NCBI RefSeq assembly: GCF_000020025.1
Contig: NC_010628.1
Coordinates: 6,810,001 to 6,842,000 of the forward strand
Length of the DNA stretch: 32,000 nt
Source: Nostoc punctiforme PCC 73102
GTDB lineage: Bacteria > Cyanobacteriota > Cyanobacteriia > Cyanobacteriales > Nostocaceae
Direction: 5' to 3'
In this document: positions 10,673 through 26,936 of the stretch, one piece after another
Layout of the letters: each line of letters opens with the position of its first letter
How positions within the stretch are numbered: the first letter of the stretch is position 1
Notes under the pieces: model-generated
Seen by the model: the letters and a program-made list of their open reading frames with translations, nothing else
Told to the model about the DNA's origin: nothing
Database searches by the model: none
Translations under genes and position numbers: made by a program

Positions 10673-11218
10673 ATGTGGAAAAGAATTGTATTAATTTTGC
10701 TATTGGTGTTGAGTTTCAGCCTGAGTAATTCTGATATAGCGGCTGCGGCTGGACTCAAAAGCTTTGTAGACACTAGTGATGGCTATCAGTTTTTATATCC
10801 TAACGGCTGGCTGCAAGTTAAAGTTGCCAACGGGCCAGATGTGGTTTTCCACGATTTGATTGAGGTATCTGAAAACGTTTCTGTTGTCATTAGCCCAGTT
10901 CCAGAAGGCAAAACTTTATCAGAATTGGGAACCCCAACAGAAGTAGGATATAAGTTGGGAAAAGCTGCTCTTGCGCCTCCTGACTCTGGTCGTTCGGCTG
11001 AATTAGTCAATGCCGCACAACGAGAAGTAGACGGTAAAACCTACTACCTTTTAGAGTATGAGGTTAAACTTCCCAATAAACAGCAACGGCATAACATCGC
11101 CAGCGTGGCTGTTAGCCGTGGCAAACTTTTTACCCTCAACGCCTCAATTCCTGAAAAACGCTGGCAGAGAGTTAAAGGAATGATTGATGAGGTTGTAAAT
11201 TCTTTTTCTGTCTATTAA
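10673..11218 (+). CDS. PsbP-like (CyanoP family) protein
   Basis: 181 aa with an N-terminal signal-like segment. FVDTSDGYQFLYPNGW, NVSVVISPV, YYLLEY and LFTLNASIPEKRW are typical PsbP-domain strings. Confidence 0.85.
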   Translation: MWKRIVLILLLVLSFSLSNSDIAAAAGLKSFVDTSDGYQFLYPNGWLQVKVANGPDVVFHDLIEVSENVSVVISPVPEGKTLSELGTPTEVGYKLGKAALAPPDSGRSAELVNAAQREVDGKTYYLLEYEVKLPNKQQRHNIASVAVSRGKLFTLNASIPEKRWQRVKGMIDEVVNSFSVY

Positions 11219-11234
11219 TAGGGAATAGGGAATA

Positions 11235-11295
11235 GGGAATGGGGAATGGGGGATAGAAAAGAAATTTAATCACCAATGCCCCATGCCCCGTACCC
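11235..11295 (+). terminator. Imperfect long hairpin formed by a G-rich heptamer (STRR1-like) array and its C-rich complement
   Basis: GGGAATGGGGAATGGGGGATAG (11235-11256) pairs with CCAATGCCCCATGCCCCGTACCC (11273-11295), about 17 of 22 positions by hand. It sits between the psbP-like stop and the maf start. There is no clear U-tract. Confidence 0.4.
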
Positions 11296-13656: not shown

Positions 13657-13772
13657 AATCCGTGTTTGGTTAAAAGGTTGCTAAAACTCAGGTTATAGCG
13701 CTTCTCGTTTCTATGCAATAGAGTCTGACCTCTATCTAAATCTCTCTTCTAGAAAGCTACGGTATTGCATAA

Positions 13773-13940
13773 GCATTGCAAGTTGATGCATAGGCATTGC
13801 AGGTTGATGCACTAGCATTGCAAGTCCATGCATTAGCATTGCAAGTCCATGCATTAGCATTGCAGGTCGACGCTTTAGCATTGCAGGTCGATGCACTAGC
13901 ATTGCAAGTCGATGCATTGGCATTACAGGTCAAGATGTGC
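13773..13940. repeat. Tandem repeat, 21-bp unit GCATTGCA(A/G)GT(C/T)(G/C)ATGCA(T/C)TA. Seven good copies plus one degenerate copy.
   Basis: Read directly. Units start at 13773, 13794, 13815, 13836, 13857, 13878 and 13899, with a degenerate unit at 13920. The array lies 117-284 nt upstream of the dhaK start codon. Confidence 0.9.
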
Positions 13941-14080: not shown

Positions 14081-14956
14081 TCAATCCAAAGATTCCATTA
14101 ACTCAATACACTTGTGCATCTGCTGGCGCATGGTTTCCTTATCAGCATGAAACCTTCGCCCATGACCTGGTAGCACCCACTCAAAAGAGTAATTAGCTAA
14201 GTTACGCATTGATTTAGTTTGTTCTGACCAAGAATACCAGCAGGCATTGTGGAATGCAGCCAGTTGATGCAAGCTTTCTGACCAAGCGAGATGGTCGCCA
14301 GTGAAGAGAAACTTATTTTTGTAGAGTAGGACAGTTTGTCCTTTAGTGTGACCGGGAACTGGAATAATTAAGAAATCTGGAGTCAAGGCAAATGGTTCGG
14401 AACCAGTTAGCTGTATTTCTACATTGCGAGTATCCGCAGTAATATCATCAGCATGAAGGATGCGATCGCACTGAAAATGCTCGGCAAACTTTTGATGATC
14501 TGCCACATCATCCTTATGAGTTAGGTACATATAACGAATCGACCCCAGTTCTTCTAAACGCTTGACTAAAGGCGGCGTAAACCGGGGAGAATCCACCAAA
14601 ATGTTACCTTCTGGAAGTTGAATTAAATAGCTAGCAGCACCATAAGATTTTTCAGAATGATAGCCGCAGTGGTAAATATTTTCTGTTACTAATATTGGAA
14701 AGCTTTGTTGAACAGTTTTGATATCTTTTGGCTTTTCAACTGTGCCAATGGAACTGGTAGGACAAGCTAAAAGTGCTTGCAGTGCAGCTAATCTTTCCGC
14801 CTCATTCGTTGGTTGATGATAAACAGCCGATTGATCGTCAACATCATAAAATACTTCAGGAGCCATCCAGCGACAGGTATCACAATCAATACAGGTAGTA
14901 TCTACATAAAAATCGCCGTTGACATTTTGAGAGCGACGCTGATTTAAATGAGCCAT
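14081..14956 (-). CDS. MBL-fold metallo-hydrolase with an N-terminal ferredoxin-like [4Fe-4S] domain
   Basis: The N-terminus has C-x2-C-x2-C ... CP (CIDCDTCRW...ACPTSS). The remainder has beta-lactamase-fold strings (YLTHKDDVADH, PGHTKGQ, TGDHL, LPGHG). Confidence 0.75.
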   Translation of the reverse strand: MAHLNQRRSQNVNGDFYVDTTCIDCDTCRWMAPEVFYDVDDQSAVYHQPTNEAERLAALQALLACPTSSIGTVEKPKDIKTVQQSFPILVTENIYHCGYHSEKSYGAASYLIQLPEGNILVDSPRFTPPLVKRLEELGSIRYMYLTHKDDVADHQKFAEHFQCDRILHADDITADTRNVEIQLTGSEPFALTPDFLIIPVPGHTKGQTVLLYKNKFLFTGDHLAWSESLHQLAAFHNACWYSWSEQTKSMRNLANYSFEWVLPGHGRRFHADKETMRQQMHKCIELMESLD

Positions 14957-15373: not shown

Positions 15374-16243
15374 ATGAGCAGTAATGATCAAATCAAAATT
15401 CTGTTTCTGGCAGCAGATCCCAGTAATGCTGCACGATTACGCTTGGGGCAAGAGTTGCGTGATATTCGTGAAAAACTGCAACTAGCAAAAGAGCGAGACA
15501 GATTTATTCTAGACTCCCGTGAATCTGTACGTCTGGGAGATATCAGCCAGGCTATATTCGATGTTGAACCGCAGATTGTGCATTTTTCTGGACATGGAAC
15601 CAGTACGGGTGAGCTTTGTTTTGAAGATTTACTAGGAGAATACCAACCTGTACAACCCGATGCTCTAGCAGCGTTATTTGAACTAGTAGCCGATCAAATA
15701 AATTGTGTGGTGTTGAATGCTTGCTATTCCGAAGCTCAAGCAAAAGCGATCGCACAACATATTTCTTTTGTCATTGGCATGAATAAAGAAATTGGAGATC
15801 AAGCCGCGATCGCTTTTGCTGTTGGTTTTTACAAAGCATTGGCAGCAAGGCGGACGATAGATCAAGCTTACAAGTTCGGTTGTGTCGAAATTAGATTGCA
15901 AGGCATTGCAGAACATTTGACTCCAGTTCTGTACACCAAACAAAACTCAGTGTCTCCAGTCTCAGAGGTACAGCAGATAGACTCCAACAAATCAACTGGA
16001 GTAACCAATGCACAGTCAACTAGTTTAAATCTGGGGCAAAGGCAGCGAATTTTACAGGAAATCGAAAGCCTCCAGCAACAGTATGATTTATTAAGTCAGA
16101 AATTGAGCCGCCTACGGTTGGATTTAGTGATAGAATCTGGCACTGTCATCAAGTTTCAGTTAGAAAAGCAGATTGAAAATGCTGAAGCTGAAAGAACACA
16201 ACTTACTCAAAGGATCGAGCAGCTAGAAAATAGCCTGCAATAA
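15374..16243 (+). CDS. Minimal CHAT/caspase-like cysteine protease domain plus a C-terminal helical adaptor module
   Basis: KILFLAADP...IVHFSGHG (His74 candidate, nt 15593-15595) and VVLNACYS (Cys117 candidate, nt 15722-15724) fit the caspase-fold His/Cys dyad arrangement of CHAT domains. Residues ~225-287 are a predicted helical hairpin homologous to the N-terminus of the next ORF. Confidence 0.75.
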   Translation: MSSNDQIKILFLAADPSNAARLRLGQELRDIREKLQLAKERDRFILDSRESVRLGDISQAIFDVEPQIVHFSGHGTSTGELCFEDLLGEYQPVQPDALAALFELVADQINCVVLNACYSEAQAKAIAQHISFVIGMNKEIGDQAAIAFAVGFYKALAARRTIDQAYKFGCVEIRLQGIAEHLTPVLYTKQNSVSPVSEVQQIDSNKSTGVTNAQSTSLNLGQRQRILQEIESLQQQYDLLSQKLSRLRLDLVIESGTVIKFQLEKQIENAEAERTQLTQRIEQLENSLQ

Positions 16244-16283
16244 AAATAGTAGTATCTCAATAGTTGGGTATCAAAACTCATAG

Positions 16284-17264
16284 ATGTCTTCAGTTCGGCA
16301 TTTACAGCAAAAACGGGAAGAACTTCAACAACACTACGATGCGTTTAGCGAGAAGATAAAGTTGTTGCGGAATCAACACGCCATTGAAGCGGGGGCTTCA
16401 GTAGCTTTTCAACTAGACAAAGAAATTGAGCGGGTTGAGAAAGAACGCGATCGCCTCCTGAAGCAGATTCAGATTCTTGAGAGGTCTTGCAAGAGTGAGC
16501 CAATACACAGTGAACTGTTTCGCCTCAACTACATAGCACAGGTACAGTTATTCCGAGAATTTATTACAGAAAAACGTATAGGAGCTTTCTTAGTTCATGG
16601 TTCGCCAGAATATGGTCAAATCTGGTTACTGAAGCGTTTGTTACAGAAAATTCCTGAAAGTACAGTGACTTCCCCAATCCCATTTCATCTCAAACGCAGG
16701 GCACTTAGGAGTGATATTGCAGCCCTATGGAGAGAGTTAGGCCGTCAGATCGGAGTACAAAATTTTTCATCCCATGAGGAGATTGCCAGGAATGTAGTAG
16801 CTCAATTAAAAACCCAACATATCATCCTAGTTTTTCACGATCTCGATTGCATTGATGAAACCTATCTGCACGAATTAATCCGTGATTTTTGGTTGCCCCT
16901 GGTAAACTCAACCCCACAGACAATTTGCTCAAGCAACGAATTTTTTCTACTGATGTTTTTGCTTGACCAAGATGGTTGTGTCAACACTTGGAATCTTGAG
17001 TTTGCAGATCGGTTCGATCTGGTATGGAAACCCCATATTCCCATTAGGCTACCAATGATTGACACTTTATCTGAGCAAGTCTTACTTAACTGGATGGAAA
17101 ATGCAATTGATGTTCTACCAATCCAGATGACTAAAAAAATTGACTATACAGTTCAGGTGATTTTAGAGAAGAGTGAAGGCATTCCAGAGCGTGTGTTTGC
17201 TGAAATTTTTGGTTTGTGTGGCTGTAACTGGCAGGAGGAAGAAACCCGGTGGTTAGAACTTTAG
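16284..17264 (+). CDS. Helical adaptor module plus a degenerate (probably non-hydrolysing) P-loop NTPase-like domain
   Basis: Residues 5-68 align with the C-terminus of the upstream CHAT protein. The Walker A position reads GSPEYGQI instead of G-x4-GK[ST] (nt 16599-16622). A Walker B-like IILVFHDLD is retained. Confidence 0.55.
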   Translation: MSSVRHLQQKREELQQHYDAFSEKIKLLRNQHAIEAGASVAFQLDKEIERVEKERDRLLKQIQILERSCKSEPIHSELFRLNYIAQVQLFREFITEKRIGAFLVHGSPEYGQIWLLKRLLQKIPESTVTSPIPFHLKRRALRSDIAALWRELGRQIGVQNFSSHEEIARNVVAQLKTQHIILVFHDLDCIDETYLHELIRDFWLPLVNSTPQTICSSNEFFLLMFLLDQDGCVNTWNLEFADRFDLVWKPHIPIRLPMIDTLSEQVLLNWMENAIDVLPIQMTKKIDYTVQVILEKSEGIPERVFAEIFGLCGCNWQEEETRWLEL

Positions 17265-18206
17265 ACGGAAAGCGGCTGAAATATATAGGTAAGGTTCAAC
17301 CCCAGCCAGGAGAGCAAGACCCGGAGACGGGTCAAATCTTGTATCCTTACCTGCCGAGTGAGAAATTGGTAGAGGCTGTGAATTTAGCGATCGCCCTCGA
17401 ACGCCCCTTACTATTAAAGGGAGAACCAGGATGCGGCAAGACAAAATTGGCTCGTGCTGTGGCTTATGAGTTGGGTTTACCCTATGAAGCTTGGTACATC
17501 AAATCTACCAGTCGAGCGCGGGATGGTCTTTATACTTATGATGCCGTTGGCAGGTTGCGGGATGCTCAACTTGCTGCCTCCAAAATAGATGAAGAAGCCG
17601 CAATCAAAGCAAAAAATGCTGATGACTACGTAGAGTGGGGACCGTTAGGACGTGCCTTTCGCAATGAGCAGCCAACTGTAGTTTTAATTGATGAAATAGA
17701 TAAAGCTGACATTGACTTTCCTAACGATCTGCTGTTAGAGCTTGATGAGCAAAGGTTTGAAGTCACAGAAGTAAAACAAAACAGTCCGCTCAAGAAAATT
17801 CAGGCGAAAGCAACACCAATTGTTTTGATCACTAGTAACGATGAGAAAGAAAGACTTGCCTGATGCTTTCTTACGTCGTTGTTTATTTCACTATGTTAAA
17901 TTCCCTGAACGTCAGCAATTAATTGATATTGTCAAAACTCGGTTTTCGGTTTCGCCTTTGGAATTGGTGGACGCAATTATTGACCGCTTTTTAGAACTGC
18001 GTGAAGAGATGCGGCGAGATAAGGGCGAAGCTGGTAAAAAGGTCAGTACCAGCGAACTGATGGATTGGGTGCGGATTCTTAATCATCAAGATGATGAAAT
18101 TCTCAGCAAGTTAAAAACAGAACTCTTGTATCCTGGGGTGTTGCTGAAGAGTTGGGATGATTACCGCCGCTATGGTGAACAGATGCGATCGCAGCCAGAA
18201 GTATGA
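17249..18206 (+). pseudogene. MoxR-type AAA+ ATPase (CoxD/AAA_5-like), reading frame interrupted at 17845-17863
   Basis: The first ORF (17249-17863, GTG start) carries Walker A GEPGCGKT, Walker B VVLIDEIDKAD and sensor-1 ITSN. The second ORF (17841-18206, +1 frame) continues with DLPDAFLRRCLFHYVKFP, the arginine-finger region. Together they make one ~317-aa MoxR. The stop overlaps the vWA start (ATGA). Confidence 0.9.
17845..17853 (+). other. Frameshift site in the MoxR gene: apparent 4-nt tandem duplication (GAAA GAAA)
   Basis: As written, GAT GAG AAA GAA AGA CTT GCC TGA reads DEKERLA-stop. Deleting one GAAA gives GAT GAG AAA GAC TTG CCT GAT GCT TTC, reading DEKDLPDAF, which is continuous with the downstream ORF. 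Confidence 0.7.
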
Positions 18207-19327
18207 AAATAGAAGCTCTCCACGAAGAACTACCACTGCTTGAGCTTTTTACACAACTGCGCGAGGCAGGTTTACCCTTGGGTATCGATGAATACCGCCT
18301 TGTTTTGACAGCTTTACAAGAAGGCTTTGGCACGACTGACCAAGAAGCGTTAGCAGAACTGTGCCGTACCTTGTGGGTAAAATCCCAGGATGAAGAACAC
18401 CTCTTCAACTATCACTTTCAACAAGTAATAACAGAACCTTATCCTGTAAGACCTTTTGTCAGGAAGGAAGAAGAGAAAACATCTTCCAGAATGCAAGAAG
18501 CGGTAGAAAGTGACGATAATTATTCACCTGATTTGCTCAATACAACACCGACCACTGTACCCGTTTCATCGGAATTAATGGAAGTACAGGATGAGATGCA
18601 AGTGGCTGAAGCAGTACAGATTACTACTCAAAAAAATGAGGAAATTACTGTTAATCGCTTTACCGAAACCGATGAGTATTTTCCAGTGACGCGGCGACAG
18701 ATGAAACAAAGCTGGCGGCATTTACGCCGAATGGTACGCCAAGGTTTGCCCACAAAGTTAGACATAGAGGCAACTATTGAGCAATTGGTACGGCAGGGGG
18801 TTTTGCTAGAGCCTGTACTGATGCCCAGTCGGGTAAATAGAACTGAACTACTTTTGCTGATTGATCATAAGGGATCGATGGTTCCCTTTCACGCACTATC
18901 CCAGCGATTAGCCCAGACAGCATTACGAGGCGGACGCTTAGGAAAAGCTAGTATTTACTACTTTCACAATTGCCCAACCAAGTATCTTTACCATGACCAG
19001 ACGCGCCAAAAAGCCGAACCTGTCACAGATTTTCTAGCTCAGTTGCGCCCAGACCGTTCCGCTGTATTAATTTTTAGTGATGGGGGTGCAGCACGCGGCG
19101 GTTTTAGTCTGGAACGGCTGGAGTTAACCCAAAAATTTTTAGACCAGTTGAAACAGCGATCGCGTTATATTGCATGGCTGAATCCAATGGCAACAGAGCG
19201 CTGGTTTGGCACAACAGCAGGAGAAATTGTCCGTTTAGTGCCGATGTTTGAAGTTAGCCGACAGGGTTTTGATGGTGCGATCGATGTGTTGCAGGGTCGG
19301 GGGATCAATGCACAATTAAGGTACTGA
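18203..19327 (+). CDS. vWA domain protein, CoxE-like
   Basis: The N-terminal LLELFTQLREAGLPLGIDEY...AL resembles the CoxE N-region. The C-terminal vWA has ELLLLIDHKGSM (MIDAS position) and AVLIFSDGGA. Translationally coupled to the MoxR gene by a 4-nt overlap. Confidence 0.85.
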   Translation: MKIEALHEELPLLELFTQLREAGLPLGIDEYRLVLTALQEGFGTTDQEALAELCRTLWVKSQDEEHLFNYHFQQVITEPYPVRPFVRKEEEKTSSRMQEAVESDDNYSPDLLNTTPTTVPVSSELMEVQDEMQVAEAVQITTQKNEEITVNRFTETDEYFPVTRRQMKQSWRHLRRMVRQGLPTKLDIEATIEQLVRQGVLLEPVLMPSRVNRTELLLLIDHKGSMVPFHALSQRLAQTALRGGRLGKASIYYFHNCPTKYLYHDQTRQKAEPVTDFLAQLRPDRSAVLIFSDGGAARGGFSLERLELTQKFLDQLKQRSRYIAWLNPMATERWFGTTAGEIVRLVPMFEVSRQGFDGAIDVLQGRGINAQLRY

Positions 19328-19367
19328 CTGTAATCAATTTAACTCGGAGTATTTTAAGGGTAGAGGT

Positions 19368-20936
19368 ATGAAGCCAGAAGTTGCTAGTCGTAGAATTGAG
19401 TCTTTTGGTCAACGCTTTGGGGAAACGCACCTCTACCTGGCTTACCATGCTGCTTTTCCGTTAGCCCTCACACCAGATTTGCTTTACCGCTTGTGGGCCA
19501 ATTTTCAACAAGATATTAATCATGAAGTACTAAATATCCCTTGGATGGCTGTGGCTGATTTACTACTTTCTAGCCTTTGTGATGAGGTGGGACATGAACT
19601 CTATGAGATGGATACAGCAGTACGAAATGCTTTGTTGAAAGAGTTGAGGGAGAATCCTCGTTTTGGCGAAAAGCGGATTAATGAATTGTCTGATTTTTTG
19701 CTTACCTATGTACGGCAACAACTTGATAGCTACGACCCGGATATTCGTGATTTTGCTCAGGCTCAGAAGTGGACAGCGTTAGCCTATACGCGACCAAGTG
19801 AGGCAGCGAGGGATTTAGCATCAGTTCTTGCAAGGTTGAAGTTAGAGGAAAAGGCAGAGTGGGTTCGTATGGCATTGCTGGTGGAAACTTTTGCAGAGCC
19901 ATTAGCAGAATTCCAACCTCTACTAATTTATGCTCGTGGGATGGCAAACTTTGTCTGTGGTTATCAAGAACGTGCGACAACAGAGATTACAGGGTTACTA
20001 GCAAACCAGGAGCCTCAATTACAGATTGCAGGAGTAAACCTGCCAATTCCTGAACAGATAGCTAATTCTTTTGAGGAAGTTAGGTCTATTAATCAGTTCT
20101 CAACTAACTTGACTTCTTCACAATTACCCAGTACTGTTCGCATTTTAGCTGTGGATGATGTAGCAGATAATCTCATCCTAATCCAAACAGTTTTAGAAAG
20201 TGAGGGGTATCAGATAGATTTAGCAGCAGATGGTACAACAGCTTTATCATTAGTTAAAGAATCTCCACCTGATTTAATTATCCTAGATGTAAAAATGCCA
20301 GAAATGGACGGTTATGAGGTTACACGCCGCATCCGCAATAACCATAATCTTCCCTACATTCCGATTCTACTCATCTCAGCATATTTTGAAGCTAGTGTTG
20401 TACAAGGCTTAGATATTGGAGCAAACGATTTTATTCGTAAACCTATTGATGTAGATGAGCTACTAGCAAGGGTGCGCTCGTTGTTGCGGCTAAAAAAAAT
20501 GATTGGTAAAAGTGACAAAATCGAGGATACAGTTGAGTCTACTTTCTACAATATACAAAACAATCCTCTTAGCAATCCGCTTTTTATTAGTACTTATAAT
20601 AATGAAATCAAAGATATTAAAGTTAAGGTTAGACTCTACAATCTAGCAAAAGAACTCAATGTAGACAGCCGAGATATAATGACAATATGTAAGTCTCTTG
20701 GAATTGAAGTCAAAAGCCATAGCAGCACTATTTCTAACACAGATGTTCAGCGAATTCGTGCTGCTTTTAGCAACTATTTGAAAGCTTTTGCACAATCTTT
20801 TCCTACTGAACCTATTACAGAAACAGAAACCCTAAAGGATTCACTCATCTCTCAAAATGGATTAAATTGCTCTCTGTTAGGTGAGCTTCTTACAATAAAA
20901 AATGGCAAGAAGCTGATCAAGAAACCGCACGATTAA
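19368..20936 (+). CDS. Multidomain protein: unknown N-terminal helical domain (~aa 1-235), receiver (REC) domain (aa ~257-377), IF2 N-terminal-like domain (aa ~417-467)
   Basis: REC: ILAVDDVADN, DLIILDVKMPEMDG (Asp307), ILLISA, FIRKP. IF2_N-like: VKVRLYNLAKELNVDSRDIMTICKSLGIEVKSHSSTISNTDVQRIRAAF, very close to the extreme N-terminus of cyanobacterial IF-2 as I recall it. The last ~15 residues look like frame-shifted read-through. Confidence 0.85.
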   Translation: MKPEVASRRIESFGQRFGETHLYLAYHAAFPLALTPDLLYRLWANFQQDINHEVLNIPWMAVADLLLSSLCDEVGHELYEMDTAVRNALLKELRENPRFGEKRINELSDFLLTYVRQQLDSYDPDIRDFAQAQKWTALAYTRPSEAARDLASVLARLKLEEKAEWVRMALLVETFAEPLAEFQPLLIYARGMANFVCGYQERATTEITGLLANQEPQLQIAGVNLPIPEQIANSFEEVRSINQFSTNLTSSQLPSTVRILAVDDVADNLILIQTVLESEGYQIDLAADGTTALSLVKESPPDLIILDVKMPEMDGYEVTRRIRNNHNLPYIPILLISAYFEASVVQGLDIGANDFIRKPIDVDELLARVRSLLRLKKMIGKSDKIEDTVESTFYNIQNNPLSNPLFISTYNNEIKDIKVKVRLYNLAKELNVDSRDIMTICKSLGIEVKSHSSTISNTDVQRIRAAFSNYLKAFAQSFPTEPITETETLKDSLISQNGLNCSLLGELLTIKNGKKLIKKPHD

Positions 20937-21343
20937 TTATTTCGATTGCTGCCGCAGAGAGACAAGGTTGGCTTGGTGTAGAGGAGTTGAAAAATTTTTC
21001 CTGTCAAAATTTACGAACAATTGATCAGCTTTGGGTAAAATACAGTAATGGGAATTTTGGTTTTAGTGTGCAGCAAACTATATGGGAAAGTATTGGATTC
21101 GCTAACAACGTTAGAGACTATTCTATGTGGTGGAATTTTGGTAATCTCGTAGGATGGCGTGTAAAAGATAGATGGCTACCCTACGAACGAATACAATTTA
21201 CAGCCCAAGCTCCCAAAGGACATCTGCCATTTTTTAGAGCATGGATAGGAATGAGAAAAACAGGGCTTGTACATTCAATGCATCAAGTCAATCGTTTTCA
21301 TGCATTTATGTATAGGTGCGCGTTTTGTCACCTGACTCAATAA
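20885..21343 (+). pseudogene. GUN4-like domain reading frame, out-of-frame continuation of the preceding ORF (-1 frame). No credible start codon of its own.
   Basis: The frame opens after the TGA at 20882-20884 and reads ASYNKKWQEADQETARLIISIAAAERQGWLGVEELKNFSCQNLRTIDQLWVKYSNGNFGFSVQ...GWRV...APKGHLPF. This is the typical GUN4-like domain with its upstream W-x-EAD-x-ET helix. The track ORF starts only at a TTG (20987), in the middle of the homologous region. Confidence 0.8.
20897..20903 (+). other. A AAA AAT heptamer at the junction of the REC/IF2_N frame and the GUN4 frame
   Basis: In the upstream frame the codons are ATA AAA AAT GGC. The GUN4 frame reads AAT AAA AAA TGG. One extra A, or a -1 slip on A AAA AAT, joins ...LLGELLTIK to WQEADQET... 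Confidence 0.7.
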
Positions 21344-21511: not shown

Positions 21512-22465
21512 CTAACCAATAAAATGCAGATGATTACTCACCGCACTAATTAAATTATGGGTAACGGGAAGACTATCAACTACCATCCCCAGACACAACA
21601 GCATCATGTAGGAGATGGAAAAAAGAAACAACTCTTTAGCGACAGCGCGATCCTCTGGATTTTGCAATAAACGCCAAGATTTGTGGATAAATAATCCTCC
21701 CAGAATTAGGGCGATCGCAGCATAAAGAATTCCACTCGCGCCCAAGGGATATACCAATAACACGGTTGCAAACACTGTTACCAGCGTGTAGTACCAAATC
21801 TGCTTTACAGTTGCCGTAGTACCTTCAATCACAGGTAACATTGGTATCCCAACTTTTGCGTAGTCATCTTTAATCATCAGAGCTAAAGCCCAGAAATGGG
21901 GTGGTGTCCACAAGAAGACGATGGCAAAAATCAGCCATGCTGACCAGCTTAATGTCCCCGTGACAGCAGCCCAACCCACTAAAGCCGGAATTGCCCCAGC
22001 CGCACCACCAACAACGATATTCTGAGGGGTGTGGCGTTTTAGCCAGTGGGTATAGACCAAAATATAAAAGACGATGCCAGAGAAAGCTAGCAGCGCGGCT
22101 AACAGATTGGCAAATACTGCCAAGAGTGTAAAGGAAATCGTCGCTAGTGCGATCGCAAAAATTAGAGCATCGCGCGGCTGCACCTTACCCGAAGGTATCG
22201 GACGATGGCGCGTCCGCTCCATGTCATAATCAATATCCCGGTCATAGACACAATTAATCGTCTGGGCGCTTGCAGCAGCCAAAGTGCCACCAGTGAGAGT
22301 TACTAGCAACAGCAATGGGTCTACTTCTCCCTTAGCGGCAATCCACATACTCCCAGCTGTGGTAATCAAAAGCAACGGAATAATCCGAGGCTTGGTTAGC
22401 TGGTAGTAACTTTGAATTACCTGTAAAAATGTTTCGTGGTGGCGAGAGACATTAGTCTCAATCAT
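21512..22465 (-). CDS. ctaB: Protohaem IX farnesyltransferase (haem O synthase)
   Basis: 317 aa polytopic UbiA-family protein. YYQLTKPRIIPLLL, NCVYDRDIDYDMERTRHRP and WTPPHFWALA motifs. Confidence 0.95.
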   Translation of the reverse strand: MIETNVSRHHETFLQVIQSYYQLTKPRIIPLLLITTAGSMWIAAKGEVDPLLLLVTLTGGTLAAASAQTINCVYDRDIDYDMERTRHRPIPSGKVQPRDALIFAIALATISFTLLAVFANLLAALLAFSGIVFYILVYTHWLKRHTPQNIVVGGAAGAIPALVGWAAVTGTLSWSAWLIFAIVFLWTPPHFWALALMIKDDYAKVGIPMLPVIEGTTATVKQIWYYTLVTVFATVLLVYPLGASGILYAAIALILGGLFIHKSWRLLQNPEDRAVAKELFLFSISYMMLLCLGMVVDSLPVTHNLISAVSNHLHFIG

Positions 22466-25151: not shown

Positions 25152-25193
25152 AATGACTAATGACTAATGACTAATGACCAATGACTAATGACT
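25152..25193. repeat. Heptamer tandem repeat (AATGACT/AATGACC) x6, STRR-like
   Basis: Read directly. Six consecutive 7-nt units run into the ctaD start codon (ATG at 25188 lies in the last unit). It resembles the TGAC(C/A)AA-type STRR family of heterocystous cyanobacteria. Confidence 0.85.
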
Positions 25194-26936
25194 ATGACAC
25201 AAGCTCAGTTGCAAGAAACTGCCAATATCCCCGCCCTTAGTGAGGAGCCGGGGATCAGAAAATGGCAAGACTACTTTGGCTTCAACACCGACCATAAGGT
25301 GATTGGGATTCAATACCTAGTCACTACGTTCATTTTCTACTGCATTGGTGGGGTGATGGCTGACTTGGTTCGTACAGAACTGCGAACCCCAGAAGTCGAT
25401 TTTGTCACCCCTGAAGTCTACAACAGCTTATTTACGCTGCACGCCACAATTATGATTTTCTTGTGGATCGTGCCAGCTGGTGCGGGTTTTGCTAACTTCC
25501 TCATCCCCTTAATGATTGGGGCAAAGGATATGGCATTTCCGCGCTTGAATGCTGTTGCCTTTTGGATGATTCCCCCTGCGGGTTTATTGTTGATCGCTAG
25601 TTTAGTGGTAGGCGATGCACCAGATGCAGGTTGGACTTCTTACCCTCCCCTGAGCTTGGTAACAGGTCAAGTCGGTGAGGGAATTTGGATTATGAGCGTC
25701 CTTTTACTAGGTACATCATCGATTTTAGGGGCAATCAATTTCTTGGTGACATTGCTCAAGATGCGTATCCCTGGTATGGGGGTTCATCAAATGCCCTTGT
25801 TCTGCTGGGCGATGTTTGCTACCTCGGCGCTGACTTTGGTATCTACGCCAGTGTTAGCAGCAGGTTTGATTCTGCTTGCCTTTGACTTAATTGCCGGTAC
25901 AACATTTTTTAACCCAACTGGCGGTGGTGACCCTGTAGTTTACCAACACATGTTCTGGTTTTACTCCCACCCAGCGGTTTACATTATGATTTTGCCCTTC
26001 TTTGGCGCAATTTCAGAAATTATCCCCGTCCATTCCCGCAAGCCGATTTTTGGCTATAAAGCGATCGCTTATTCGTCTCTTGCCATTAGCTTTCTGGGGC
26101 TAATTGTTTGGGCGCACCACATGTTTACCAGCGGTATCCCCGGTTGGTTGCGGATGTTCTTCATGATCACCACCATGATCATTGCCGTACCCACAGGGAT
26201 TAAAATTTTCAGCTGGTTAGCAACCATGTGGGGTGGAAAAATCCGGCTTAACACTGCCATGCTATTTGCCATCGGCTTTGTTGGCACCTTTGTGATTGGT
26301 GGGATCAGTGGCGTGATGTTGGCAGCAGTGCCCTTTGATATTCACGTTCACGACACCTATTTTGTGGTGGCACACTTGCACTACGTGCTATTTGGTGGTA
26401 GTGTTCTCGGCATTTATGCGGCGATTTACCACTGGTTCCCGAAAATGACGGGACGGATGGTGAACGAATTTTGGGGTAAGGTTCACTTTGCCTTAACAAT
26501 AGTGGGTCTAAACATGACCTTCTTACCAATGCACAAGCTGGGATTAATGGGCATGAACCGCCGTATTGCCCAGTATGACCCCAAATTTACCTTTCTCAAC
26601 GAAATCTGCACTTATGGCGCTTACATACTAGCAGTTTCGACATTCCCCTTCATCATCAATGCGATTTGGAGTTGGTTATACGGCGAGAAAGCTGGTAATA
26701 ATCCTTGGAGAGCATTGACCTTAGAATGGATGACTACATCACCACCTGCGATCGAGAATTTTGATCAAACCCCAGTATTGGCCACAGGCCCCTACGACTA
26801 CGGTTTGGAAAATGCTAATGAAGGTGTACCTTTATCCGATCCCAATCCAGTCTTATCTGCTGGGCCTAATTCAGTTTTACGCGCCGACCCAGACGAACCA
26901 TACCCAACAATTGAGTCTGAGTTAGAAAAGCGTTAA
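25188..26936 (+). CDS. ctaD: Cytochrome c oxidase subunit I
   Basis: 582 aa. WFYSHPAVY, VWAHHMF and HDTYFVVAHLHYVLF are haem-copper oxidase signatures. The start could be 25188 or 25194. Confidence 0.95.
   Translation: MTMTQAQLQETANIPALSEEPGIRKWQDYFGFNTDHKVIGIQYLVTTFIFYCIGGVMADLVRTELRTPEVDFVTPEVYNSLFTLHATIMIFLWIVPAGAGFANFLIPLMIGAKDMAFPRLNAVAFWMIPPAGLLLIASLVVGDAPDAGWTSYPPLSLVTGQVGEGIWIMSVLLLGTSSILGAINFLVTLLKMRIPGMGVHQMPLFCWAMFATSALTLVSTPVLAAGLILLAFDLIAGTTFFNPTGGGDPVVYQHMFWFYSHPAVYIMILPFFGAISEIIPVHSRKPIFGYKAIAYSSLAISFLGLIVWAHHMFTSGIPGWLRMFFMITTMIIAVPTGIKIFSWLATMWGGKIRLNTAMLFAIGFVGTFVIGGISGVMLAAVPFDIHVHDTYFVVAHLHYVLFGGSVLGIYAAIYHWFPKMTGRMVNEFWGKVHFALTIVGLNMTFLPMHKLGLMGMNRRIAQYDPKFTFLNEICTYGAYILAVSTFPFIINAIWSWLYGEKAGNNPWRALTLEWMTTSPPAIENFDQTPVLATGPYDYGLENANEGVPLSDPNPVLSAGPNSVLRADPDEPYPTIESELEKR

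What the first reader, a model, noticed from the sequence alone, without database searches (positions are those of the whole stretch)
15374..21343. Tightly packed same-strand cluster: CHAT-like protease, paired adaptor, dead P-loop protein, MoxR AAA+, CoxE-type vWA and a REC/IF2_N/GUN4 protein. Candidate NTP-gated conflict or cell-suicide system.
Seen: five or six ORFs on the plus strand with 40-nt gaps or overlaps (16-nt overlap at 17249-17264, ATGA overlap at 18203). Housekeeping genes flank them on the opposite strand: a ferredoxin-MBL gene on the left and ctaB on the right. The domains I read from the translations are as follows. (1) A caspase-fold His/Cys CHAT-like domain. (2) A ~63-aa helical module shared between ORF1 C-terminus and ORF2 N-terminus. 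(3) A P-loop domain with an ablated Walker A. (4) A MoxR ATPase with intact Walker A/B, sensor-1 and Arg-finger strings. (5) A CoxE-like vWA domain. (6) An unknown helical domain followed by REC, IF2_N-like and GUN4-like domains. Established: MoxR plus vWA pairs act as chaperone or thresholding modules. From memory, comparative genomics by Kaur, Burroughs, Iyer and Aravind (2020) on multicellular prokaryotes links vWA-MoxR pairs, CHAT/caspase effectors and small effector-associated adaptor domains in predicted conflict systems. Inference: this locus is a variant of that logic in which the protease effector is recruited in trans through a homotypic adaptor, and a receiver/IF2_N/GUN4 protein is the sensor or output. 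I do not know of a characterised system with this exact composition.
Basis: partly seen in the sequence, partly recalled or inferred. Interest (0 to 1): 0.9.

Follow-up and report, generated by a model that had tools for sequence, protein, structure and literature searches.

The report
Broken iSTAND MoxR-vWA conflict gene cluster
This is the Nostoc punctiforme copy of a predicted bacterial "immune or suicide" gene cluster that was already described from genome comparisons (an iSTAND-type MoxR-vWA system with a caspase-like protease), and here two frameshift mutations have probably disabled it.

Summary
The window comes from Nostoc punctiforme PCC 73102.

The cluster belongs to the "iSTAND ternary system" described computationally by Kaur et al. 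(eLife 2020). It is the minority form noted by Kaur et al. (eLife 2021), in which the variable C-terminal domains sit on a separate gene next to the vWA gene.

- **Conserved order.** The order iSTAND-MoxR-vWA-carrier gene is intact in 50 of 69 related cyanobacterial loci.
- **Carrier domain.** The unknown helical N-domain of ORF6 is a conserved 235-aa carrier. It is fused to very different C-terminal modules, and FGE-sulfatase is the commonest (18 of 74).
- **Hotspot.** The cluster sits in a variable spot between a ferredoxin-MBL gene and ctaB. Nostoc species without it carry HicAB toxin-antitoxin pairs there.
MoxR is split by a 4-nt AGAA duplication inside an invariant motif. GUN4 is cut off by a 1-nt deletion. 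Independent read assemblies reproduce both, and relatives lack both.

Verdict: an ordinary, probably inactivated member of a known predicted class. No member of this class has been tested experimentally, and the direction of signalling is unresolved.

The parts
15374..16243 (+). ORF1 (ACC83828): an N-terminal CHAT caspase-like protease (aa 6-175, H74/C117) plus a C-terminal EAD9-like coiled-coil adaptor (aa 228-287, nt 16055-16234).
   Evidence: Pfam CHAT 1.4e-7 and PADLOC chat 7e-20. The catalytic dyad is conserved. The adaptor aligns with the ORF2 N-terminus at 47% identity, E 5e-12. The EAD9 hit is sub-threshold.
16284..17264 (+). ORF2 (ACC83829, UniProt B2J6Q3): an EAD9-like adaptor (aa 9-68) plus an inactive STAND NTPase domain (aa 78-226). 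This is the 'third component' of the system.
   Evidence: Pfam iSTAND 2.9e-37. The P-loop position lacks GK[ST] in all 57 homologues.
17249..17863 (+). MoxR AAA+ ATPase, 5' fragment (ACC83830, 204 aa). It carries Walker A (GEPGCGKT), Walker B (LIDEIDK) and sensor 1 (TSN), and ends at a premature stop after the frameshift.
   Evidence: AAA_5 9.3e-11. Relatives encode an intact protein of 316-318 aa.
17844..17851 (+). Frameshift lesion 1. AGAAAGAA is a 4-nt tandem duplication; relatives carry a single AGAA before AGAC.
   Evidence: Alignment with 10 relatives and 3 independent assemblies.
17841..18206 (+). MoxR 3' fragment in the +1 frame (ACC83831, 121 aa). It carries the arginine-finger motif (LRRC) and the lid domain.
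   Evidence: The repaired 317-aa sequence matches AAA_5 over positions 1-138 of 139.
18203..19327 (+). CoxE-type vWA protein (ACC83832, 374 aa). It has no C-terminal effector domains of its own, and its MIDAS motif is non-canonical (DHKGSM).
   Evidence: VWA_CoxE 1.6e-12. The 120 closest homologues are almost all standalone proteins of 360-500 aa.
19368..20936 (+). ORF6 (ACC83833, 522 aa). It holds a conserved helical carrier domain (aa 1-237, nt 19368-20078; vWA-L-like), REC (aa 259-370; D263, D264, D307, S337 and K358 present) and IF2_N (aa 420-467). It ends at a premature stop after the frameshift.
   Evidence: Pfam. The carrier family has 1932 clusters, always at the N-terminus in the best 150. 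The structure model has pLDDT 94.9. REC residues were read from the sequence.
20897..20902 (+). Frameshift lesion 2. One nucleotide is deleted within or next to the A-run (N. minutum reads AAAAAGATGG, the window reads AAAAAATGG).
20903..21343 (+). GUN4 domain, out of frame with ORF6. The listed ORF 20987-21343 is ACC83834 (Npun_F5528, 118 aa) and covers only GUN4 profile positions 51-133.
   Evidence: GUN4 4.6e-25. The intact orthologue matches positions 5-133 at 1.4e-37.
14081..14956 (-). Left boundary of the variable spot: the ferredoxin-MBL gene (ACC83827).
   Evidence: The gene is syntenic in Nostoc species with and without the system.
21512..22465 (-). Right boundary: ctaB, heme O synthase (ACC83835).
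   Evidence: UbiA 6e-77. Synteny is shown.

Best explanation
The cluster is the Nostoc punctiforme PCC 73102 copy of an iSTAND-type MoxR-vWA 'ternary' conflict system. It has five genes: CHAT-EAD9, EAD9-iSTAND, MoxR, CoxE-type vWA, and a carrier protein bearing REC-IF2_N-GUN4. It lies in a variable chromosomal hotspot, and in this strain two frameshifts have very probably inactivated it.

How intact relatives most likely work is inferred, not shown. The inactive STAND protein acts as a scaffold. It recruits the CHAT protease through pairing of the two EAD9-like adaptors. The MoxR hexamer and its vWA partner use ATP to remodel the complex through the conserved carrier domain, which holds the swappable C-terminal module. 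The outcome is a thresholded activation of proteolysis.

For this locus I lean to the reading that REC-IF2_N-GUN4 is a regulatory input (phosphorylation and tetrapyrrole binding) and that the CHAT protease is the output. The opposite direction is the published default, and my data do not exclude it.
For: **Identity.** All domain calls are confirmed. The published definition of the class, and of the form with a separate linker-effector gene, fits.

**Conserved order.** The order iSTAND-MoxR-vWA-carrier is intact in 50 of 69 loci. The adjacent genes overlap or lie 40 nt apart, and the scan found no terminator-like site within the cluster.

**Swappable module.**
- The carrier's C-terminal module varies among 74 proteins: FGE-sulfatase 18, CHAT 6, REC 5, AAA_35 4, CHASE2 4, periplasmic-binding 3.
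- The 24% share for FGE-sulfatase matches the published figure of about 22% for iSTAND systems.
- The module differs even at the syntenic Nostoc locus.

**Hotspot.** N. flagelliforme, N. commune and one further Nostoc genome lack the system and carry HicAB pairs or a transposase at this position.

**Decay.**
- A 4-nt duplication lies inside a motif that is identical in 58 of 60 homologues, and a 1-nt deletion lies before GUN4.
- Both are reproduced in independent assemblies.
- Intact orthologues exist.
- The repaired MoxR sequence is absent from 15 billion proteins.

**Lean towards an input role.**
- REC keeps all its phospho-acceptor residues.
- GUN4 is usually the C-terminal appendage of kinases, TIR domains, caspases and trypsin-like proteases in cyanobacteria.
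- Many modules in this position are typical sensor or binding domains: CHASE2, periplasmic-binding, WD40 and FGE-sulfatase.
- Dore et al. proposed this direction for related systems.
Against: - No member of this class has been tested experimentally, so function and mechanism rest on comparative genomics.
- PADLOC recognises no system here.
- The EAD9 matches are below Pfam's cutoff.
- Some modules in the same position are enzymes (CHAT, caspase, Macro, GH25), which fits the effector reading instead.
- A split MoxR could conceivably still assemble.
- Expression of the cluster was not examined.
Confidence: 0.72

Rival explanations
1. The system is the same, but signalling runs in the published direction (Kaur et al.). 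The iSTAND protein senses the invader. The EAD9-recruited CHAT is a signalling peptidase that, with MoxR, cleaves or remodels the vWA and carrier proteins. This releases REC-IF2_N-GUN4 as the effector, which then disturbs tetrapyrrole metabolism or translation initiation.
For: - This is the published model, and EAD9 is said to recruit signalling peptidases.
- REC and GUN4 are listed among the vWA-associated effector domains of related systems.
- Enzymatic modules (caspase, CHAT, Macro, GH25, TIR) occur in the same position.
Against: - REC, IF2_N and GUN4 have no known toxic activity.
- REC is by nature a signal receiver with intact acceptor residues.
- GUN4 is typically a regulatory appendage.
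- Classical sensor domains (CHASE2, periplasmic-binding) occupy the same position.
Confidence: 0.3
2. The cluster still works in PCC 73102. Either the two MoxR fragments assemble into an active ATPase, or slippage at the AGAA repeat restores the frame in some cells (an on/off switch). The truncated effector and a separately translated GUN4 fragment would also remain functional.
For: - The lesion is a short tandem repeat (AGAA, about 2.75 copies) that could slip.
- The second MoxR ORF starts with ATG and overlaps the first by 23 nt.
- The other three genes are intact.
Against: - The break lies inside the AAA+ core, in a motif that is identical in 58 of 60 homologues.
- All relatives have the unduplicated form.
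- No restored sequence exists in any assembly, while the split form occurs on about 98 contigs.
- The GUN4 fragment lacks the first 50 profile positions.
- Similar decay is seen in relatives: L007, L009, L015 and L025.
Confidence: 0.06
3. The cluster is a housekeeping maturation chaperone rather than a conflict system. In this view a MoxR-vWA pair like NorQ/NorD or CoxD/CoxE, together with a porphyrin-binding GUN4 protein, serves the neighbouring heme O and heme A synthases and cytochrome oxidase.
For: - The cluster lies next to ctaB, ctaA and coxBAC.
- The vWA protein is CoxE-type.
- MoxR-vWA pairs are known to insert cofactors into oxidases (abstracts listed).
- GUN4 binds porphyrins.
Against: - The linkage to ctaB is confined to one Nostoc clade. 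Homologous clusters in Scytonema, Calothrix, Tolypothrix and Brasilonema have no ctaB within 10 kb.
- Close Nostoc relatives keep ctaB and cox but lack the cluster.
- GUN4 is replaced by caspases, CHAT, AAA_35 or AbrB at the same locus.
- The iSTAND protein, the EAD pair and the CHAT protease are hallmarks of conflict systems.
- The cluster is broken in a strain that respires normally; this last point is inference.
Confidence: 0.03
4. The two frameshifts are errors in the reference sequence, and the genes are really intact.
For: Both lesions lie in A-rich repeats, which are error-prone in some sequencing methods.
Against: - The same sequence is recovered in assemblies of independent sequencing runs.
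- The assembled contigs include a lineage that differs from the window by a 21-nt repeat unit.
- The split MoxR fragment occurs on about 98 contigs.
Confidence: 0.02

Closest known systems
iSTAND ternary system (MoxR-vWA subsystem 2; Kaur, Burroughs, Iyer and Aravind, eLife 2020, PMC7159879)
   Same: - It has the MoxR plus CoxE-type vWA pair and an inactive STAND third component with an N-terminal EAD.
- A second EAD copy sits on a caspase-like peptidase encoded by the adjacent gene.
- The C-terminal domains are highly variable and FGS is the commonest.
- The class is concentrated in multicellular cyanobacteria.
   Different: - The variable domains sit on a separate gene rather than on the vWA protein.
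- IF2_N is not mentioned among the published effector domains.
- This copy carries two frameshifts.
Systems with a separate vWA-L plus effector gene (iSTAND2, TERNS3 and 'a minority of iSTAND systems'; Kaur et al., eLife 2021, PMC8195603)
   Same: The gene order is third component, MoxR, vWA, then a linker-plus-effector gene. A conserved helical domain carries the variable modules.
   Different: The third component here is the original iSTAND, not iSTAND2 or TERNS3. Sequence homology of the carrier domain to the published vWA-L was not demonstrated.
DGR-linked MoxR-vWA clusters, including the N. punctiforme paralogue Npun_F4885-F4890 (Dore et al., bioRxiv 2023; mBio 2025, PMC12691664)
   Same: They combine CHAT, MoxR, vWA and a variable-module protein. 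In the paralogue these genes were reported to be co-expressed. The variable module is proposed to be the sensor.
   Different: Those loci carry a hypermutated FGE-sulfatase/C-type lectin module and a reverse transcriptase. This locus has REC-IF2_N-GUN4 and no retroelement.
Esr threat-sensing pathway of oral Actinobacteria (bioRxiv 2026, PMC13622651)
   Same: A MoxR-vWA pair relays a threat signal to a phosphorylation-based output. This is the only experimentally studied relative I found, and it shows that such modules can signal rather than kill.
   Different: It uses beta-propeller surface sensors, Ser/Thr kinases and FHA proteins. It has no iSTAND, EAD or CHAT component.
NorQ/NorD, CoxD/CoxE and Mg-chelatase ChlI/ChlD with GUN4
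   Same: Each has a MoxR-class AAA+ ATPase working with a vWA partner. GUN4 is a porphyrin-binding cofactor of Mg-chelatase.
   Different: Those are dedicated maturation machines stably linked to their target enzymes. This cluster is accessory, has a swappable module, and carries a protease and an inactive STAND protein.
Animal apoptosome logic (CARD-CARD recruitment of caspases to a STAND scaffold)
   Same: A caspase-fold protease is recruited to a STAND-type scaffold by a homotypic helical adaptor.
   Different: The STAND domain here cannot bind nucleotide. ATP use is delegated to a separate MoxR, and the adaptor is a coiled-coil EAD9-like module rather than a death-fold domain.

Membership tests
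iSTAND-type MoxR-vWA ternary system | Adjacent genes for a MoxR-class AAA+ ATPase and a vWA protein | tested here: met
   AAA_5 at 9e-11 (5e-11 after frame repair) and VWA_CoxE at 1.6e-12, joined by an ATGA overlap. The MoxR gene is frameshifted in this strain.
iSTAND-type MoxR-vWA ternary system | Third component with a catalytically inactive STAND NTPase domain | tested here: met
   Pfam iSTAND 2.9e-37, 129 bits against a cutoff of 24. The Walker A lysine and Ser/Thr are absent in 57 of 57 homologues.
iSTAND-type MoxR-vWA ternary system | MoxR without the N- and C-terminal extensions (WxhapG and PsWRxa motifs) of VMAP-type systems | tested here: met
   By direct reading, the 50 residues before Walker A contain no tryptophan, and the protein has only 317 aa.
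iSTAND-type MoxR-vWA ternary system | vWA of the CoxE type with an N-terminal 4-helix domain | tested here: inconclusive
   The CoxE-type vWA core is matched. The N-terminal helical domain was not tested separately.
iSTAND-type MoxR-vWA ternary system | Variable effector domains attached to vWA through the vWA-L linker, or on an adjacent vWA-L gene | tested here: inconclusive
   Position, gene order and module census fit. Homology of the 237-aa carrier to the published vWA-L could not be shown.
iSTAND-type MoxR-vWA ternary system | The same effector-associated domain (EAD) on the third component and on a neighbouring peptidase | tested here: met
   The two copies share 47% identity over 60 aa, E 5e-12. 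The pair recurs in relatives. Assignment to EAD9 specifically is sub-threshold.
iSTAND-type MoxR-vWA ternary system | Conserved gene neighbourhood across genomes, mainly in multicellular bacteria | tested here: met
   50 of 69 loci have the intact core in the same order. Nearly all named hosts are filamentous cyanobacteria.
iSTAND-type MoxR-vWA ternary system | Function in defence against invaders or in programmed cell death | not testable with these tools
   I found no experimental study of any iSTAND system.
CHAT / caspase-fold cysteine protease | Catalytic His-Cys dyad in the HG...C context | tested here: met
   H74 (SGHG) and C117 (NACYS) are present and are conserved in 15 of 15 orthologues.
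Response-regulator receiver domain | Acidic pocket, phospho-acceptor Asp, conserved Ser/Thr and Lys | tested here: met
   Pfam 3.5e-29. D263, D264, D307, S337 and K358 were read from the sequence.
GUN4 porphyrin-binding domain | Complete GUN4 fold in one reading frame | tested here: not met
   In the window only profile positions 51-133 are in an ORF, and that ORF is out of frame with ORF6. The domain is complete in the intact orthologue L010.
Catalogued anti-phage defence systems (PADLOC-DB v2) | Matches to the component models of one catalogued system | tested here: not met
   Only isolated domain-level hits were found ('chat' 7e-20, and the GUN4 part of a PD-T4-6 model). There is no model for iSTAND or vWA.
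NorQD / CoxDE-type cofactor-insertion chaperones | Stable genomic linkage to the target enzyme operon | tested here: not met
   Linkage to ctaB and cox occurs only in one Nostoc clade. Relatives keep ctaB and cox without the cluster.

The most novel reading that the evidence does not exclude
In this sub-family the module on the carrier protein is the input rather than the weapon. A phosphorelay signal (REC) and the cell's tetrapyrrole state (GUN4) would be read by the MoxR-vWA machine, which then licenses an EAD9-recruited caspase-like protease on an inactive STAND scaffold. That would link light and chlorophyll status, or two-component signalling, to a bacterial apoptosome-like switch. It would also settle the published disagreement about which end of these systems senses and which end kills.
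Probability: 0.3. Interest if true: 0.6.

Novelty: new member of a known kind. Interest (0 to 1): 0.32.

Why it matters
MoxR-vWA ternary systems are widespread in multicellular bacteria, and they have been proposed as forerunners of the logic of animal apoptosis and immunity. No iSTAND-type system has yet been tested experimentally.

- **Workable material.** This analysis gives a clean set of natural variants. One chromosomal site in closely related Nostoc species holds the same four core genes with about ten different terminal modules, and there are intact and broken copies. N. punctiforme is genetically tractable.
- **Practical warning.** The PCC 73102 copy is broken in its ATPase, so experiments should use a repaired allele or an intact orthologue.
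- **Missing domain model.** The conserved 235-aa carrier domain (1932 sequence clusters, confidently folded) has no Pfam or NCBIfam model and no match among solved structures.

Tried and rejected
- **Linking the ORF6 N-domain to the published vWA-L.**
  - A profile search of 1.8 billion representatives found 1932 relatives, but the best 150 all carry the domain at the N-terminus.
  - The 120 best vWA homologues are almost all standalone proteins, and the two long ones tested (P0339, P0362) show no match to the carrier profile.
  - Pfam and NCBIfam hold no model for it.
  - A Foldseek search of the PDB gave nothing below E 0.001.
  - The supplement part I read from Kaur 2021 lists vWA-L architectures, but none from my loci.
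- **Published data on these genes.** Searches by accession and by locus tag found nothing. My first guess at the tags (F5538-F5543) was wrong. One search shows that the GUN4 fragment is Npun_F5528.
- **'MadB/MadC' names from NCBIfam.** The matches are far below the cutoffs, and the literature search led to unrelated proteins.
- **GUN4 gene beside ctaB in L089.** I considered whether it is a remnant of this system. I rejected this because it is the tail of a kinase-GUN4 gene and is only 39-52% identical.
- **Other scans.** Rfam found nothing in the window. The promoter scan found fewer sites than expected by chance, so it is uninformative.
- **Source organism.** I first guessed Nostoc sp. PCC 7120. 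The exact-match look-up shows it is N. punctiforme PCC 73102.

Full report
**Source.** Exact-sequence look-ups place the window in Nostoc punctiforme PCC 73102 (ATCC 29133). The proteins are ACC83827 to ACC83835. The GUN4 fragment is Npun_F5528, so the cluster is presumably Npun_F5522-F5528; that numbering is inferred. I found no paper that mentions these genes.

**Observation.**
- They sit between a ferredoxin-MBL gene and ctaB, both on the - strand.
- Composition is unremarkable. The scan found no terminator-like site within the cluster.

**Domains.** Every domain call made by eye is confirmed.
- ORF1 is a CHAT protease (Pfam 1.4e-7; PADLOC 'chat' 7e-20). H74 and C117 are conserved in all 15 orthologues.
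- ORF1 residues 228-287 align with ORF2 residues 9-68 at 47% identity, E 5e-12. Both have EAD9 as their best Pfam match, just below the cutoff.
- ORF2 matches Pfam iSTAND at 2.9e-37. Its P-loop position lacks the GK[ST] residues in all 57 homologues.
- The remaining genes are a MoxR-class ATPase, a CoxE-type vWA protein and a REC/IF2_N/GUN4 protein.

- MoxR is split into a 204-aa and a 121-aa ORF. The cause is a 4-nt tandem duplication (AGAA, 17844-17851).
- Ten relatives lack the duplication. It interrupts ITSNDEKDLPDAFLRRC, between sensor 1 and the arginine finger. That motif is identical in 58 of 60 homologues.
- Relatives more than 90% identical encode intact proteins of 316-318 aa.
- A 1-nt deletion at about 20901/20902 puts GUN4 out of frame.
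- The orthologues in N. minutum NIES-26 (658 aa) and Nostoc sp. DedQUE09 (722 aa, with a duplicated IF2_N) are uninterrupted fusions.
- Both lesions recur in assemblies of independent sequencing runs. These include a lineage that differs from the window by one 21-nt repeat unit.
- The repaired MoxR sequence is absent from a collection of 15 billion proteins.
- The other genes in the window show no such breaks. The lesions are therefore real and are concentrated in this cluster.

**What the cluster is.**
- Kaur et al. 2020 define four MoxR-vWA 'ternary' systems. The second has an inactive STAND protein as its third component, often with an N-terminal effector-associated domain (EAD). A second copy of that EAD sits on a neighbouring peptidase. 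They state that EAD9 mainly recruits signalling components.
- Kaur et al. 2021 add that effector domains hang on a helical linker, vWA-L. In a minority of iSTAND systems this linker and its effectors are encoded by a separate gene next to vWA.
- The present cluster fits this description gene for gene.

**The ORF6 N-domain.**
- Residues 1-237 define a large cyanobacterial family: 178 hits in the first search and 1932 clusters in the exhaustive one, at the N-terminus in all of the best 150.
- The model folds with pLDDT 94.9. It has no Pfam, NCBIfam or PDB match.
- It is followed by very different C-terminal domains.
- Among 74 complete proteins the commonest partner is FGE-sulfatase (18, or 24%). 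This is close to the roughly 22% published for iSTAND systems.
- I could not show sequence or fold homology to the published vWA-L, so that identification rests on position and behaviour.

**Neighbourhood.**
- A genome scan with this domain returned 80 loci.
- Of the 69 loci with at least 3.6 kb upstream, 50 have iSTAND, MoxR and vWA as intact single ORFs directly upstream in the same order. About a dozen show broken core genes.
- The CHAT-EAD gene lies directly upstream in the closest sub-family. In more distant relatives it lies downstream or on the opposite strand.

**Island test.**
- In eleven Nostoc-clade genomes the cluster lies beside ctaB, and wherever the locus reaches far enough upstream it lies between the ferredoxin-MBL gene and ctaB. 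The terminal module nevertheless differs among them: REC alone, REC-IF2_N-GUN4, CHAT-CHAT-AAA_35, AAA_35, caspase, AbrB-like, DUF1257 or a STAND-like ATPase.
- N. flagelliforme CCNUN1, N. commune NIES-4072 and one further Nostoc genome lack the cluster. In the same interval they carry HicAB pairs, a transposase or a kinase-GUN4 remnant.
- In other genera the homologous cluster is not near ctaB.
- The cluster is therefore accessory cargo in a variable hotspot.

**Mechanism.** Nothing here is shown experimentally. The structure suggests a scaffold (iSTAND), a protease recruited by adaptor pairing, an ATP-driven remodeller (MoxR with vWA) and a swappable module on a conserved carrier. Two directions of signalling are published.
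- Kaur et al. propose that the third component senses the invader and that the protease releases the vWA-attached effectors.
- Dore et al. propose that the variable module senses and the peptidase executes.
- For this locus I lean to the second view, for these reasons:
  - REC is a signal receiver with all its acceptor residues intact.
  - GUN4 is typically a C-terminal appendage of kinases, TIR domains, caspases and trypsin-like proteases.
  - Classical sensor domains such as CHASE2 and periplasmic-binding domains occupy the same position in relatives.
- Enzymes also occur in that position, so the question stays open.
- A 2026 preprint shows experimentally that a different MoxR-vWA pathway relays a threat signal to a phosphorylation output.

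**Rival readings.**
- A housekeeping role in oxidase or tetrapyrrole maturation is suggested by the ctaB and cox neighbours and by GUN4. The lack of conserved linkage and the module swapping contradict it.
- Residual function through fragment assembly or repeat slippage cannot be excluded, but I found no evidence for it.

**Verdict.** This is a correct and careful reading of domains by the first stage, but the system belongs to a class already described in silico. The copy in this strain is most likely dead. Its value is as part of a natural series of module-swapped and decayed alleles that could be used for the first experimental test of this class.

Noticed in passing
window 13766-13931: A 21-nt tandem array (7.9 copies) lies between the Dak1 and ferredoxin-MBL genes and creates mirror-image repeat ORFs on both strands. 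Two independent assemblies (L001, L003) lack exactly one unit (13813-13833). This is either copy-number variation or assembly collapse.
   Followed up: partly
window 25152-25198 and 11217-11256: Two heptamer tandem arrays: AATGACT x6.9 in the coxB-coxA spacer, and AATAGGG x5.7 beginning at the 3' end of the PsbP-like ORF (10673-11218), ahead of the Maf gene. These look like the short repeats common in Nostoc genomes.
   Followed up: no
window 18203-19327 (vWA), residues 221-226: The metal-binding MIDAS motif is non-canonical across the whole family. It reads D-H/Q/R-K/D/R-G-S-M instead of DxSxS, so the first serine is replaced.
   Followed up: partly
window 19368-20078 (ORF6 residues 1-237): This conserved domain has 1932 sequence clusters and a confident fold (pLDDT 95). 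It has no Pfam or NCBIfam model and no match among solved structures.
   Followed up: yes
L091 8870-11035 (Nostoc sp. DedQUE09): An open 722-aa frame encodes carrier-REC-IF2_N-IF2_N-GUN4, with a tandem duplication of IF2_N. The record on file calls only a 346-aa product from it.
   Followed up: partly
L087, L089, L090 (ctaB to ferredoxin-MBL interval): In Nostoc species lacking the cluster, the same interval holds HicA/HicB toxin-antitoxin pairs, a DDE transposase, a beta/gamma-crystallin-like gene or a truncated kinase-GUN4 gene. It is a hotspot for accessory genes.
   Followed up: yes
L007, L009, L013, L015, L025 and others: Relatives also show decayed copies: a second MoxR frameshift (L007), a MoxR-vWA deletion (L015), a truncated CHAT-EAD9 gene (L013) and fragmented iSTAND, MoxR or vWA genes (L009, L025). 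Many are metagenome bins, so some of this may be assembly error.
   Followed up: partly
L001 1-2187 versus window upstream of 10329: The first 2.2 kb of this assembly (FabH/FabD genes) do not match the window, which has an aldo-keto reductase gene there. This is either a rearrangement in that lineage or a chimeric contig.
   Followed up: no
elsewhere in the N. punctiforme genome (not in the window): A paralogous cluster, Npun_F4885-F4890, encodes CHAT, MoxR, VWA and a retroelement-diversified target. Its genes were reported to be co-expressed in a diel transcriptome study (PMC12691664).
   Followed up: no
L029 (Nostoc spongiaeforme FACHB-130): At the same ctaB-adjacent site, MoxR (88%), vWA (73%) and the carrier (75%) are conserved. 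The third component is only 42% identical and there is no CHAT-EAD9 gene, which suggests that the sensor and adaptor end is swapped as well.
   Followed up: no
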